From: Escherichia coli
GTDB taxonomy: Bacteria > Pseudomonadota > Gammaproteobacteria > Enterobacterales > Enterobacteriaceae
NCBI RefSeq assembly: GCF_003018255.1
Contig: NZ_CP027440.1
DNA: 64,000 nucleotides
Reading direction: 5' to 3' (one strand)
The notes beneath the pieces were generated by a model. That model did not search any database. It saw only the letters and a list, made by a program, of their open reading frames with translations, and was not told where the DNA came from. The position numbers were made by a program, and so were the translations under genes. Each line of letters starts with the position of its first letter. Position 1 is the stretch's first letter. Below are positions 61,909 through 63,872 of this stretch, piece by piece.

Positions 61909-62210
61909 GGGTGAGCATTTATATCGCCGGTCCAATGACGGGATATGAAAATTTCAACCGCGAGGCGTTTCACAGGGCGGAAGAAGCACTGAAACGGGAA
62001 GGGCATACCGTTTTAAACCCGGCAGTACTTCCGGACGGGCTGACTCAGCCGCAGTACATGGATATTTGCATGGCAATGATTCGTTGTGTGGATGCGGTTT
62101 ATATGCTGAAAGGCTGGCAGCGATCGGCAGGCGCTAAGGCAGAACTGGCACTGGCGGAGAAACTGGGACATGCGGTTATTTTCCAGGAGGCAACCAGTGA
62201 GCGAAATTAA
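61905..62210 (+). CDS. DUF4406 / nucleoside 2-deoxyribosyltransferase-like protein
   Basis: 101 aa, with a GTG start overlapping the upstream stop. [40 protein letters not shown]....AVYMLKGWQRSAGAKAELALAEKLG has the IAGPM(T/S)G and W..S.GA..E pattern of that family. Confidence 0.65.
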   Translation: MRVSIYIAGPMTGYENFNREAFHRAEEALKREGHTVLNPAVLPDGLTQPQYMDICMAMIRCVDAVYMLKGWQRSAGAKAELALAEKLGHAVIFQEATSERN

Positions 62211-62359
62211 TTACCAGGAGCTACGGCAGGTGAAAGAGAAAGCATAATCCAGATCTGAATAATTAAAATCAGCACTGTAAATAAAATTTAATCCTTAACC
62301 GGAGGGATTTCTGCACCCTCAGAACATCAGGAGACCGCCAGAAAGGGCGGTAATGAAAA

Positions 62360-62728
62360 ATGACTGAATTAACAAAAGAGCAATTAATCAAAGAAGCCAA
62401 ATTAAAAATAGCGGTTGCGAAATGTTACCCTAATTCAGAGATGGCCAGGGTAGAGGGAGAGCTATTCAAAATTGCACTGGCATCGCTGGAGGCGGTTCCG
62501 GTGGCATGGCTGCATTCAGACAATGGCCTGGGTATTCCAGCAATAACCAGGAGTAAAAACGTTGCTGATAGTTGGTTATCAAAGGGCTGGTATGTTCAGC
62601 CGTTATATGTAGCCCAACCTGTACCGGTGGTGCCGGATGCTCGTCCATCTTTAAATAATGGCATTGTCGGATTTGATGAAGGCTGGAATGCCTGCCGGGA
62701 TGCCATGCTTAATGGAGATAAATCATGA
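62360..62728 (+). CDS. Hypothetical phage protein (122 aa) with a C-terminal GWNACRDAML motif
   Basis: ORF-track entry. The C-terminal motif G.DEGWNACRDAMLNG recurs in small lambdoid ea/nin-region proteins as I recall. The function is unknown. Confidence 0.55.
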   Translation: MTELTKEQLIKEAKLKIAVAKCYPNSEMARVEGELFKIALASLEAVPVAWLHSDNGLGIPAITRSKNVADSWLSKGWYVQPLYVAQPVPVVPDARPSLNNGIVGFDEGWNACRDAMLNGDKS

Positions 62729-63426
62729 TTAATCGTATCAAACTGGAGCACATCCTCGAATATGCCGGGCAGCAGAGGCATATTGGTCAGCATTGTAAAA
62801 TTCCACCAGGAGATATGGTTGAAATCATGGAGATTGCCATGCGCAAGGCTGGCAACCCTCCGGTAACTCCGGGGCGTTTGCCTGGCGGTTTCACCATTGA
62901 GGAGGCGAAGGAGTTACATGAAGACCTGGTGCGCAGCCACATAAGCAAGGCTTTAAGTGGCGAAAAGATGAAGAAGAAGGATCTCGATGCTGATTTGCGC
63001 TGGATCCATGGGGTTATAGTCCAGGCCGCTTGGTTTGTAAAAGCATCACTGGAGCAGAATGTGCTAACGGGTAACTCTCAGGTAATCCCTGATGACGGTC
63101 GCGAACAGTTTGAAACACTTATCAGGTTCCATGCAGATGATAAAAACCATGAAACATTATTGCTTCGTGCTAACGAAGGGATGAATTACCGGGATCCAAA
63201 TGTGGATTTGGCATGGATATTCTGGAAATCCAGTCGAGAGCACATATTGCCTGGAAAAAGCGACAATAATCCAGCATCAGGCGATCAGGTAAGTGAATTA
63301 ACAATGTGGGTGAAGCGGTTATCTCATTCCTTAAAAAGCGTTAATAAATCAAGCAAACTACCGGATAAAGCGATGGACTACCTGAAGCGAAACGGACTGA
63401 TAAACGAGGAGAATATTTTACGATGA
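62725..63426 (+). CDS. Hypothetical phage protein (233 aa)
   Basis: Its start overlaps the upstream stop (ATGA). I recognise no domain. Confidence 0.55.
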   Translation: MINRIKLEHILEYAGQQRHIGQHCKIPPGDMVEIMEIAMRKAGNPPVTPGRLPGGFTIEEAKELHEDLVRSHISKALSGEKMKKKDLDADLRWIHGVIVQAAWFVKASLEQNVLTGNSQVIPDDGREQFETLIRFHADDKNHETLLLRANEGMNYRDPNVDLAWIFWKSSREHILPGKSDNNPASGDQVSELTMWVKRLSHSLKSVNKSSKLPDKAMDYLKRNGLINEENILR

Positions 63427-63506
63427 CCTGGCCTGAAGCGTTCATAACGGTAGGAATTGCAATGGCGGTGGCGCTGGTGGTGTATTCGATTTGCCGCTGG
63501 GGATAA
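63423..63506 (+). CDS. Candidate 27-aa single-pass membrane peptide
   Basis: The ATG overlaps the upstream stop (ATGA). The ORF reads MTWPEAFITVGIAMAVALVVYSICRWG. It is too short for the ORF track. Confidence 0.4.
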   Translation: MTWPEAFITVGIAMAVALVVYSICRWG

Positions 63507-63599
63507 AAACGGTTTGCGGGGAAAGAAGAGTTAAGTAGAATTGCTGCGGGTGCTTGAGGCTGTCTGCCTCGGGCATGCCGCCGTAAGGCAGACAGAGAA

Positions 63600-63703
63600 A
63601 AGCCCCAGTTAACATTACGCGTCTTGCAGGACGCTTAACATTAATCTGAGGCCCAATCTATGCTTCACAAACGTAGGTTAGCCTCTTACGTGCCGAAAGG
63701 CAA
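63600..63703 (-). ncRNA. sok: Sok-like antisense RNA and its promoter (approximate)
   Basis: Minus-strand promoter TTGCCT (63703-698)-N17-TAACCT (63680-75). The transcript would be antisense to the mok start and leader, and contains a GCGTC-N6-GACGC hairpin. The 3' end is not defined. Confidence 0.35.
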
Positions 63704-63872
63704 GGAGAAGCAGGCTATGAAGCAGCAAAAGGCGATGTTAATCGCCCTGATCGTCATCTGTATTACCGTTGTTGTGACGGCACTGGTAACGAGGAAAGAC
63801 CTCTGCGAGGTACGAATCCGAACCGGCCAGACGGAGGTCGCTGTCTTCGTAGACTACGAATCTGAGAAGTAA
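63660..63872 (+). CDS. mok: Mok-like reading frame (in-frame upstream extension of hok)
   Basis: 70-aa ORF MLHKRRLASYVPKGKEKQAMKQQ.., with the same organisation as K-12 MokC/HokC as remembered. Confidence 0.6.
   Translation: MLHKRRLASYVPKGKEKQAMKQQKAMLIALIVICITVVVTALVTRKDLCEVRIRTGQTEVAVFVDYESEK
63717..63872 (+). CDS. hok: Hok/Gef-family type I toxin (51 aa)
   Basis: MKQQKAMLIALIVICITVVVTALVTRKDLCEVRIRTGQTEVAVFVDYESEK is near-identical to HokC/Gef (MKQHKAMIVALIVICITAVVAALVTRKDLCEVHIRTGQTEVAVF..). GGAG lies 9 nt upstream. Confidence 0.9.
   Translation: MKQQKAMLIALIVICITVVVTALVTRKDLCEVRIRTGQTEVAVFVDYESEK

What the first reader, a model, noticed from the sequence alone, without database searches (positions are those of the whole stretch)
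62360..63506. Three coupled ORFs of unknown function ending in a 27-aa membrane peptide, directly upstream of hok
A 122-aa ORF, a 233-aa ORF and a 27-aa hydrophobic ORF are linked by ATGA overlaps at 62725-28 and 63423-26. I recognise no domains beyond a C-terminal GWNACRDAML motif in the first. A soluble pair followed by a tiny transmembrane peptide, placed next to a type I toxin locus in an accessory (nin/ea-like) region, could be a small effector module.
Basis: seen in the sequence. Interest (0 to 1): 0.35.

Follow-up and report, generated by a model that had tools for sequence, protein, structure and literature searches.

The report
Unannotated 27-residue phage membrane microprotein gene
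The three overlapping ORFs are real, but the two large ones are reshuffled pieces of common prophage accessory proteins, and the interesting part is the 27-codon ORF: a conserved, almost never annotated membrane microprotein gene found in at least a quarter of E. coli genomes.

Summary
ORFs 62360-62728, 62725-63426 and 63423-63506 exist with ATGA overlaps. The last one stops 41 nt before the start of a hok/sok transcript.

ORF1 and ORF2 are not a new soluble pair. They are mosaics of shuffled modules from the Ea22/EaA/DUF551 accessory-protein pool of lambdoid prophages. Both lack the DUF551 domain, have no Pfam hit and gave no usable structure model. The full trio occurs in only 10 of 5426 complete E. 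coli genomes.

The 27-codon ORF is a separate, conserved gene.
- It occurs in 1336 of 5426 genomes, and two sister clades add 485 and 208.
- Its boundaries coincide with mosaic junctions on both sides.
- It was intact in 119 of 120 loci chosen only by a different downstream gene (DUF4222, no hok).
- Median dN/dS is 0.29 in its own frame, against 1.0 and 1.8 in the other forward frames.
- It follows 31 of 32 genes ending in ORF2's C-terminal module, always overlapping by ATGA, but only 6 of 110 DUF551 genes in general.
- hok lies downstream in about 60% of loci.

It most likely encodes a single-pass inner-membrane microprotein made by translational coupling. Its function is untested. A dedicated three-gene effector unit tied to hok is not supported.

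The parts
62197..62247 (+). Sixteen-codon remnant, started by GTG (VSEINYQELRQVKEKA, then a stop), of the N-terminus of an Ead/Ea22-like gene. It overlaps the end of the DUF4406 gene and is a scar of module shuffling.
   Evidence: ORF list of the window, compared with 933W L0140, which starts MSEINYQALREKAEKA.
62360..62728 (+). ORF1, 122 aa. It consists of module a (residues 1-50, 62360-62509; a helical hairpin) and module b (residues 51-119, 62510-62716; contains GWNACRDAML), followed by a 3-residue tail. In relatives these are the N-terminal two thirds of ~200-aa DUF551 proteins. Here the DUF551 domain is absent.
   Evidence: phrog_5117 matches full length at E 2.3e-28. Identity is 70-90% over residues 1-119 to DUF551 proteins such as P0123 and P0217. 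There is no Pfam hit. PGAP marks it as a pseudogene missing its C-terminus. The AlphaFold2 model is confident only for residues 1-43.
62714..62717 (+). GGAG Shine-Dalgarno sequence for ORF2, 7 nt before its ATG and inside the last codons of ORF1.
   Evidence: Read from the sequence.
62725..63426 (+). ORF2, 233 aa, a four-module mosaic. Module c is about residues 1-47 (62725-62865). Module d is about 48-118 (62866-63078). Module e is about 119-185 (63079-63279). Module f is about 186-233 (63280-63423) and ends ...KRNGLINEENILR.
   Evidence: phrog_924 matches at E 1.5e-75, and phrog_660 matches only residues 130-233. P0016 is c+d+DUF551, P0004 is c+e+f and P0097 is a+e+f; P0057 and P0061 carry d...f. 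PGAP splits it into a pseudogene and a 165-aa CDS. The AlphaFold2 model is all-helical with mean pLDDT 45 and is unreliable.
63406..63411 (+). GAGGAG, a Shine-Dalgarno-like sequence 11 nt before the start of the 27-codon ORF, inside the end of ORF2.
   Evidence: Read from the sequence. In DUF551 and L0139-type contexts the equivalent is GGAGGTGAATCA directly before the ATG, and it travels with the small ORF.
63423..63506 (+). The 27-codon microprotein gene (MTWPEAFITVGIAMAVALVVYSICRWG). It has one hydrophobic helix (residues 6-24, mean Kyte-Doolittle hydropathy 2.38), nearly invariant W3-P4-[ED]5-A6, G11xxxA15, S22 and R25-W26, and an ATGA overlap with ORF2.
63514..63541 (+). Inferred hok promoter: -35 TTGCGG (63514-63519), a 16-nt spacer, and -10 TAGAAT (63536-63541). 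It starts 7 nt after the microprotein stop codon.
   Evidence: Read from the sequence relative to the 5' end of the Rfam match. It falls below the threshold of the consensus scan, so it is an inference.
63548..63872 (+). hok/sok type I toxin locus: the hok mRNA 5' part (63548-63722), the mok frame (63660-63872) and hok (63717-63872, 51 aa). It is a neighbour of the microprotein gene, not part of it.
   Evidence: Rfam RF01794 at 117.7 bits, the ORF list and the hokD annotation in L001.

Best explanation
The finding is the 3' end of a mosaic accessory-gene block in the early-right operon of a lambdoid (STEC-type) prophage.

ORF1 and ORF2 are intact but recombinant assemblies of interchangeable modules. 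The modules are joined at short linkers such as LEAEPVAW and GNSPVTP. They are drawn from the Ea22/EaA/DUF551 gene pool.

The 27-codon ORF is a genuine and separately mobile gene. It encodes a single-pass inner-membrane microprotein. Its start overlaps the stop of whatever modular gene precedes it (AUGA). The preceding gene is nearly always one ending in ORF2's module f, or one of a subset of E. coli DUF551 genes. The microprotein is therefore made by termination-reinitiation whenever the early operon is expressed.

Shown here: the gene boundaries, conservation, the coding signature and the linkage pattern.

Inferred only:
- Orientation is N-terminus out and C-terminus in, from the positive-inside rule (E5 against R25).
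- It acts through helix-helix packing, using the conserved G11xxxA15 face and the WPEA and RWG ends. The partner would be either the co-translated modular protein, which it would hold at the membrane, or a host membrane protein.
- hok is a frequent neighbour rather than a component.
For: Setting. The genes upstream are repressor/cro-like, O/P-like, DUF1627 and DUF4406. Downstream are hokD, DUF968, RusA and Q.

Mosaicism of ORF1 and ORF2.
- phrog_660 matches ORF1 residues 1-99 and ORF2 residues 130-233.
- Homologues carry the modules in other combinations, with or without PF04448.

The microprotein.
- The window-type sequence is in 1336 of 5426 E. coli genomes. Sister clades are in 485 and 208 genomes, where PGAP annotates only the flanking DUF551 and DUF4222 genes.
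- Homology breaks exactly at its start and stop. It has three kinds of upstream gene and more than five kinds of downstream sequence.
- In BP-4795 it fills the 85-nt unannotated gap between ORF5 and ORF4.
- Among 120 loci selected only by the downstream DUF4222 gene, 119 have the intact 27-codon ORF.
- Median pairwise dN/dS is 0.29 in frame (97% of pairs have dN below dS), against 1.04 and 1.84 in the +1 and +2 frames.
- In the hok-anchored and pattern sets, third-codon positions vary most (28 variants, against 17 and 14). Both 6-nt deletions are in frame.
- Module-f genes are followed by it in 31 of 32 loci. DUF551 genes in general are followed by it in 6 of 110.
- Two natural fusions join its helix to upstream modules (L345, P0244).
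- The region has no stable RNA fold (z-scores +1.8 and +1.3) and no Rfam hit.
Against: - There is no experimental evidence of translation. The peptide strings are absent from the searchable literature and from the held supplements of three EHEC/Enterobacteriaceae small-ORF studies.
- The gene is confined to Escherichia and Shigella among 185,579 species genomes, so it is young.
- The IMG/VR loci are not independent samples, and the sequence is only 81 nt long.
- Broken alleles exist: W3-to-stop, and 1-nt insertions or deletions.
- In the hok-anchored set alone the excess of synonymous variants is modest (24 of 59, p = 0.026). The antisense frame that shares the wobble position scores similarly.
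- The linkage to module f could partly reflect simple physical co-inheritance.
- The function, topology and partner are inference only.
Confidence: 0.75

Rival explanations
1. One reading: ORF1, ORF2 and the small ORF form one dedicated three-part effector module that works with the adjacent hok toxin.
For: All three are translationally coupled by ATGA overlaps and lie directly upstream of hok. Module f of ORF2 and the small ORF are almost always adjacent.
Against: The trio is present in only 10 of 5426 genomes. ORF1's modules occur mostly fused to DUF551 and away from the small ORF. ORF2's modules recombine freely. The small ORF occurs without hok in 38 of 97 loci and in a whole sister context next to xis-int. 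There is no PADLOC, Pfam or NCBIfam support for any effector domain.
Confidence: 0.07
2. The microprotein is functionally tied to Hok, either as a membrane modulator or co-toxin of Hok, or as a type-I-toxin-like peptide itself. This would be part of a general pattern in which prophage hok loci are preceded by a short transmembrane ORF.
For: In 59 of 97 loci hok lies within 400 nt downstream, and in 44 the stop codon is 41 nt before the hok transcript start. In a sample anchored on hok, 65 of 115 loci have a hydrophobic short ORF ending 20-135 nt before the transcript start. These belong to four sequence types, A to D, against a 1.3-1.9% background. Types B and C also vary mostly at third-codon positions and are in 1380 and 672 genomes. 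HokW helps phage release (PMC8621323). The size and hydrophobicity resemble type I toxins.
Against: About 40% of type A copies and the two sister clades have no hok nearby. The ORF lies outside the hok mRNA. No promoter of its own and no antisense RNA were found. It is coupled to an upstream gene, unlike type I toxins. The four ORF types share no clear homology. Adjacency may simply reflect a common insertion hotspot.
Confidence: 0.12
3. The 27-codon ORF is not translated. Its sequence is conserved as DNA or RNA, for example as an upstream element of the hok promoter, a recombination linker between modules, or part of a structured RNA.
For: It abuts the hok -35 element. It is very short and has never been annotated in PGAP records. 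Some alleles are broken.
Against: It is conserved intact without hok downstream. The substitution pattern is frame-specific. The indels seen are in-frame 6-nt deletions. The start codon, stop codon and Shine-Dalgarno sequence are retained across different flanks. There is no Rfam match and the region folds less well than shuffled sequence.
Confidence: 0.06
4. The small ORF is normally expressed as a C-terminal membrane anchor of the upstream protein, through a programmed -1 frameshift just before the stop codon, and not as a free peptide.
For: The small ORF is in the -1 frame relative to the upstream gene. That frame is open for about 13 codons upstream (L124). Two natural in-frame fusions exist (L345 and P0244).
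Against: No slippery heptamer is shared by the three upstream contexts (...AATATTTTACGATGA...GAGGTGAATCAATGA...AAGGTGAATCAATGA). An ATG or GTG start is kept in 53 of 57 alleles, which a fusion would not need. A Shine-Dalgarno sequence is placed for independent initiation.
Confidence: 0.04

Closest known systems
Ea22 / EaA / DUF551 (PF04448) mosaic accessory proteins of lambdoid phages (lambda Ea22, Stx-phage Ea22 variants V1-V3, CPS-53 YfdS)
   Same: ORF1 and ORF2 share 55-90% identical segments with hundreds of prophage proteins that carry DUF551 or are named EaA/Ea22. Like the published Ea22 variants, they are built from blocks in a mosaic manner, and the literature describes DUF551 as a portable domain (PMC10834534). 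They sit in the same early, non-essential accessory regions.
   Different: Neither ORF contains the DUF551 domain or any other Pfam family, and no Ead_Ea22 family was reported for them. Here the block lies between the replication genes and Q rather than between exo and xis. The pro-lysogenic activity known for Ea22 has not been tested for these module combinations.
Hok/Gef and other type I toxin peptides (Hok, TisB, DinQ, ShoB, Ibs)
   Same: The 27-residue product is a single hydrophobic helix of the same size class and sits 41 nt from a real hok locus. The size comparison with TisB, DinQ, ShoB and Ibs rests on my own knowledge.
   Different: There is no sequence similarity to Hok. The ORF lies outside the hok mRNA. 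No promoter of its own, antisense RNA or Rfam family was found. It is translated by coupling to an upstream gene. The charge distribution (acidic N-terminus, basic C-terminus) is opposite to Hok's.
Small single-pass regulatory membrane proteins of E. coli (KdpF, AcrZ, MgtS and the like)
   Same: It has similar length, one transmembrane helix, a small-xxx-small packing motif and co-expression with a larger partner from the same operon. The comparison rests on my own knowledge. The only database echo is a sub-threshold KdpF hit (TIGR02115, 14.4 bits against a cut-off of 26.85).
   Different: There is no significant homology. It is phage-borne and restricted to Escherichia and Shigella. Its partner is unknown.

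Membership tests
DUF551 (PF04448) / Ea22-like proteins | Presence of the C-terminal DUF551 domain | tested here: not met
   The Pfam scan of ORF1 and ORF2 gives no PF04448 hit. Homologues of the same N-terminal modules do have it.
DUF551 (PF04448) / Ea22-like proteins | Sharing of N-terminal or linker modules with bona fide DUF551 proteins | tested here: met
   ORF1 residues 1-119 are 71-90% identical to P0217 and P0123. ORF2 residues 1-123 are 86% identical to P0016. All three carry DUF551.
Ead/Ea22 (IPR025153) N-terminal/coiled-coil signature | A match to the Ead_Ea22 family in ORF1 or ORF2 | tested here: not met
   No such Pfam family was reported at E up to 1. Only a 16-codon remnant of that N-terminus lies upstream, at 62197-62247.
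PHROG families phrog_5117 (ORF1) and phrog_924 (ORF2) | A full-length profile match | tested here: met
   ORF1 residues 1-121 match profile positions 1-125 of 125 at E 2.3e-28. ORF2 residues 1-233 match positions 28-267 of 267 at E 1.5e-75. Both families have unknown function.
hok/sok type I toxin-antitoxin locus | The small ORF lies within the hok mRNA or its regulatory elements (tac/ucb, mok, sok, fbi) | tested here: not met
   The Rfam RF01794 match starts at 63548, and the ORF ends at 63506, upstream of the inferred promoter. The ORF also occurs without hok.
Type I toxin peptides in general | A small hydrophobic membrane peptide | tested here: met
   It is 27 aa with GRAVY 1.29, and the core (residues 6-24) has mean hydropathy 2.38.
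Type I toxin peptides in general | Its own promoter plus a cis-encoded antisense RNA antitoxin | tested here: not met
   No promoter-like site and no Rfam family lie in or beside the ORF. The start overlaps the upstream stop in 86 of 90 loci. These are computational tests only.
Type I toxin peptides in general | Toxicity on over-expression | not testable with these tools
   This needs an induction experiment.
Bacterial lipoprotein / cleavable signal peptide | A lipobox [LVI][ASTVI][GAS]C with an invariant cysteine | tested here: not met
   The sequence before C24 is Y-S-I. C24 is F in the BP-4795 clade and S in P0243.
KdpF (TIGR02115) | A score above the NCBIfam cut-off | tested here: not met
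   It scores 14.4 bits against a cut-off of 26.85.
Known anti-phage defence proteins (PADLOC-DB) | Any profile match for the three ORFs | tested here: not met
   There are no hits at E up to 1.
Protein-coding gene (for the 27-codon ORF) | The open frame, start and stop are conserved in loci chosen without reference to the ORF | tested here: met
   It is intact in 119 of 120 DUF4222-anchored loci. The coding sequence is present in 31 of 32 module-f-anchored loci and intact in 30.
Protein-coding gene (for the 27-codon ORF) | Frame-specific purifying selection | tested here: met
   Median dN/dS is 0.29 in frame 0, against 1.04 and 1.84 in frames +1 and +2. It ranges from 0.15 to 0.57 in 21 of 21 clade pairs. 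The sequence is short and the pairs are not independent.
Protein-coding gene (for the 27-codon ORF) | Direct evidence of translation | not testable with these tools
   Nothing was found in the literature or the held supplements.

The most novel reading that the evidence does not exclude
Lambdoid prophages may carry a hidden layer of 27-34-codon single-helix membrane microproteins. The family found here could be the membrane partner or anchor of the Ea22-type modular proteins, whose mechanism is unknown. Together with three other unannotated or barely annotated hydrophobic short ORFs (types B, C and D), it marks a recurrent 'microprotein then hok' arrangement. In that arrangement the microprotein would tune Hok-mediated membrane damage and phage release after induction.
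Probability: 0.15. Interest if true: 0.65.

Novelty: new member of a known kind. Interest (0 to 1): 0.4.

Why it matters
A gene present in roughly a quarter or more of sequenced E. coli genomes is missing from standard annotation, because it is shorter than gene callers accept. The genomes include the 933W/Sakai-type Shiga-toxin phages.

It is co-translated with members of the Ea22/EaA/DUF551 accessory family. The one studied representative of that family influences the lysis-lysogeny decision by an unknown route. A membrane partner would give that problem a concrete, testable handle.

The repeated placement of short hydrophobic ORFs just upstream of prophage hok loci also deserves a systematic look. 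It bears on how these toxin loci are used during prophage induction.

For ORF1 and ORF2 the value is corrective. They are reshuffled known modules. The database names 'valyl-tRNA synthetase' and 'pseudogene' are misleading.

Tried and rejected
Searches and models that gave nothing:
- Pfam, NCBIfam and PADLOC scans of the three ORFs gave nothing above threshold.
- A PDB sequence search gave nothing usable.
- AlphaFold2 models of ORF1 (pLDDT 59.7) and ORF2 (45.3) were too poor for fold searches, so none was run.
- The peptide strings are absent from the full-text library and from the held supplements of three small-ORF studies.
- Papers on the exo-xis region and on hokW do not mention the ORF.

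Alternative readings rejected:
- Structured RNA or riboregulator: no Rfam hit and positive folding z-scores.
- The minus-strand 57-aa ORF at 63442-63615 (annotated as ORF-38 in AP004402): no coding signature.
- Lipoprotein signal peptide: no lipobox, and the cysteine is not conserved.
- Programmed -1 frameshift: no shared slippery site.
- General partner of all DUF551 genes: only 6 of 110.

Other points:
- A species-level scan found the peptide only in E. coli and Shigella, plus two probable contaminant contigs.
- The protein-database search cannot take queries under 40 aa. The 40-aa extended form found only four clusters, all named 'hypothetical protein'.
- My first variant analysis of ORF types B and C was contaminated by non-homologous sequences and was redone.
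- My first regular expression for one search was wrong and was corrected.
Full report
**1. Observation**

ORF1 is 62360-62728 (122 aa), ORF2 is 62725-63426 (233 aa) and the third is 63423-63506 (27 aa). ATGA overlaps lie at 62725-62728 and 63423-63426. The GWNACRDAML motif is near the end of ORF1.

The neighbour is a real hok/sok locus. Rfam RF01794 matches 63548-63722 at 117.7 bits against a gathering score of 59. The mok and hok frames run to 63872. From the 5' end of that match I infer a promoter, -35 TTGCGG at 63514-63519 and -10 TAGAAT at 63536-63541. The small ORF therefore stops 7 nt before the -35 element and 41 nt before the transcript start.

A 27-codon ORF is not remarkable alone. 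Sixty-six mechanical ORFs of at least 20 aa overlap the last 4 kb. Only 1.3-1.9% of such ORFs in the window are as hydrophobic.

**2. Setting**

A 99.9% identical stretch occurs in a handful of STEC chromosomes. There the gene order is repressor/cro-like, YdaT, O-like, P, DUF1627, a DNA-binding protein, DUF4406, [ORF1, ORF2], hokD, a small protein, DUF968, RusA and Q. The ORFs are thus in the accessory stretch between the replication genes and Q of a lambdoid prophage. They are on the same strand as the early-right operon. No terminator-like site separates them from hok.

**3. ORF1 and ORF2 are mosaics of known modules**

Neither ORF has a Pfam, NCBIfam, PADLOC or PDB match. Both match PHROG families of unknown function over their full length: phrog_5117 and phrog_924.

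Tellingly, phrog_660 matches the first 99 residues of ORF1 and the last 104 of ORF2. Database homologues explain this:
- ORF1 residues 1-119 are 71-90% identical to the N-terminal part of abundant ~200-aa proteins that continue into a DUF551 domain (P0217, P0123).
- ORF2 residues 1-123 are 86% identical to another class of DUF551 proteins (P0016).
- ORF2 residues 116-233 are 96% identical to the C-terminal part of P0004. That protein lacks ORF2's middle module.
- P0097 joins ORF1's first module to ORF2's last two.

The proteins are therefore built from interchangeable blocks, which I label a and b for ORF1 and c, d, e and f for ORF2. The blocks are joined at short linkers (LEAEPVAW, GNSPVTP).

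A 16-codon remnant of an Ead/Ea22-type N-terminus sits just upstream, at 62197-62247. This matches published descriptions of Ea22 variants as mosaic and of DUF551 as a portable domain (PMC10834534).

PGAP treats ORF1, and the first part of ORF2, as pseudogenes 'missing C-terminus'. It names ORF1 'valyl-tRNA synthetase', which is a misnomer. Both frames are intact here, and proteins of the same length exist elsewhere (P0121, P0001).

The AlphaFold2 models were poor. ORF1 had mean pLDDT 59.7, with only an N-terminal helical hairpin confident. ORF2 had 45.3 and was all-helical. I ran no fold search.

The whole three-ORF arrangement is found in 10 of 5426 complete E. coli genomes.

**4. The 27-codon ORF is a conserved gene in its own right**

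*Distribution.* The same sequence is in 1336 of 5426 genomes. It includes 933W and the Sakai-type Stx phages. There it follows an unrelated gene (L0139), again with an ATGA overlap, and precedes hokW.

*Boundaries.* In IMG/VR prophage loci the ORF follows three kinds of upstream gene. Fifty-four end in module f, 28 in DUF551 (...PEPPQEVNQ) and 8 in the L0139 type. The stop-start overlap is kept in 86 of 90. Downstream there are more than five different sequences, and the break falls right at the stop codon. Forty-four of 97 run straight into the hok promoter. Eleven have an intrinsic terminator and then hok about 205 nt on. Four have hok about 300 nt on. Thirty-eight have no hok within 400 nt. 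In DUF551 and L0139 contexts the Shine-Dalgarno sequence GGAGGTGAATCA travels with the ORF.

*Sister clades.* Two sister clades lie between DUF551 and DUF4222 genes beside xis-int: MSWPDAIVTLGMVFAVAFVVYSICRWG and MNWPEAFTAVGVAIAVAFILYSLFRWG. In BP-4795 the ORF fills the 85-nt gap left between annotated ORF5 and ORF4. These clades are in 208 and 485 further genome hits, and PGAP annotates only the flanking genes there.

*Tests not conditioned on the ORF.*
- Among 120 loci picked only by the start of the DUF4222 gene, 119 carry the intact 27-codon frame.
- Among their 17 alleles the median pairwise dN/dS is 0.29 in the ORF frame, with dN below dS in 97% of pairs. It is 1.04 and 1.84 in the other two forward frames.
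- In the other sets, variants are enriched at third-codon positions (28, against 17 and 14). Both length changes of 6 nt are in frame. Nonsense or 1-nt frameshift alleles are rare.

*RNA-level alternatives.* The region has no Rfam match, and it folds less well than shuffled sequence.

*The product.* It is one hydrophobic helix (residues 6-24) with nearly invariant W3-P4-[E/D]5-A6, G11xxxA15, S22 and R25-W26.

*Phylogenetic range.* A degenerate-codon scan of 185,579 species genomes found it only in E. coli and Shigella, plus two probable contaminant contigs.

**5. What it is linked to**

I anchored on ORF2's C-terminal half. In 31 of 32 loci that reach the end of module f, the microprotein coding sequence follows with an ATGA overlap, and it is intact in 30. 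By contrast, only 6 of 110 DUF551 C-termini sampled broadly are followed by it.

Two natural fusions put its helix at the C-terminus of upstream modules: L345, by a 1-nt insertion, and P0244.

The supported unit is therefore a module-f or Ea22-type gene plus the microprotein. It is not ORF1-ORF2-microprotein, and hok is not obligatory.

**6. Mechanism (inferred)**

The microprotein would be made by termination-reinitiation whenever the early operon is transcribed. It would insert with the acidic N-terminus outside and R25 inside, by the positive-inside rule. It would act through helix-helix packing on its conserved small-residue face.

The partner may be the co-translated modular protein, which it would tether at the membrane. 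It may instead be a host membrane protein. I cannot separate these. The only function reported for this protein pool is Ea22's pro-lysogenic effect.

**7. Rivals**
- The three-gene effector model fails on distribution.
- The non-coding reading fails on conservation independent of hok and on frame-specific constraint.
- A programmed frameshift lacks a shared slippery site and does not need the conserved start codon.
- A Hok-related role remains possible. In a hok-anchored sample, 65 of 115 loci have a hydrophobic short ORF just upstream, of four sequence types. Types B and C also show third-position-biased variation and occur in 1380 and 672 genomes. HokW aids phage release. However, 40% of type A copies and both sister clades lack hok.

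**8. Novelty and caveats**

Small phage membrane proteins and missed short genes are a known kind. This family appears undescribed and is essentially unannotated. Only a 40-aa extended form carries the name 'hypothetical protein'.

The caveats are these:
- There are no expression data.
- The sequence is very short.
- The prophage samples are non-independent.
- Some collections were retrieved with protein-level patterns.
- The functional statements are inference.

Noticed in passing
window 62197-62247: A 16-codon remnant, started by GTG (VSEINYQELRQVKEKA, then a stop), of the N-terminus typical of Ead/Ea22-like proteins (933W L0140 starts MSEINYQALREKAEKA). It overlaps the end of the DUF4406 gene and is a scar of module shuffling.
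   Followed up: partly
L009 8383-8472, and many other IMG/VR loci: Other prophage hok loci are preceded by different short hydrophobic ORFs. Type B is 29 aa with an AGGAGG Shine-Dalgarno sequence and a GTG start; it is unannotated and is in 1380 of 5426 E. coli genomes. Type C is 34 aa (MSDDISLAMEGALAV...LMDRLGN) and is in 672 genomes. Type D ends ...FMAVMCIEYWR. In total, 65 of 115 hok-anchored loci have such an ORF. Types B and C vary mainly at third-codon positions.
   Followed up: partly
L010 and similar type C loci, between the type C ORF and the hok promoter: A perfect 22-bp palindrome, CGATATGGGAATTCCCATATCG, sits just upstream of the hok promoter in type C contexts. Its role (operator, terminator or recombination site) is unknown.
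   Followed up: no
window 62360-62728 and its homologues P0121, P0122, P0139 and P0196: NCBI records name this protein 'valyl-tRNA synthetase'. It has no synthetase domain, so the name is a propagated misannotation. PGAP also flags ORF1 and the first part of ORF2 as pseudogenes although both frames are intact.
   Followed up: yes
L345 about 1790-1917; protein P0244: Two natural fusions place the microprotein helix at the C-terminus of an upstream modular protein. One arose by a 1-nt insertion, the other by recombination at the GNSPVT linker.
   Followed up: partly
L125 (Segatella copri MAG contig) and L128 (Xanthomonas pisi 431-bp contig): Both contigs carry E. coli Stx-phage-like microprotein plus hok DNA. 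This is probably assembly contamination rather than true hosts.
   Followed up: no
window 63442-63615, minus strand: A 57-aa antisense ORF spans the small ORF and the hok 5' region. Its 249-aa equivalent is annotated as ORF-38 in Stx2 phage I (AP004402). The substitution pattern gives no coding signal in that frame.
   Followed up: partly
L223 1889-2131 (BP-4795 ORF4); L126 5731-5968: In the hok-free context the gene immediately after the microprotein is a DUF4222 protein, starting 4 nt after the microprotein stop codon. It is followed by a 44-aa ORF and xis-int.
   Followed up: partly
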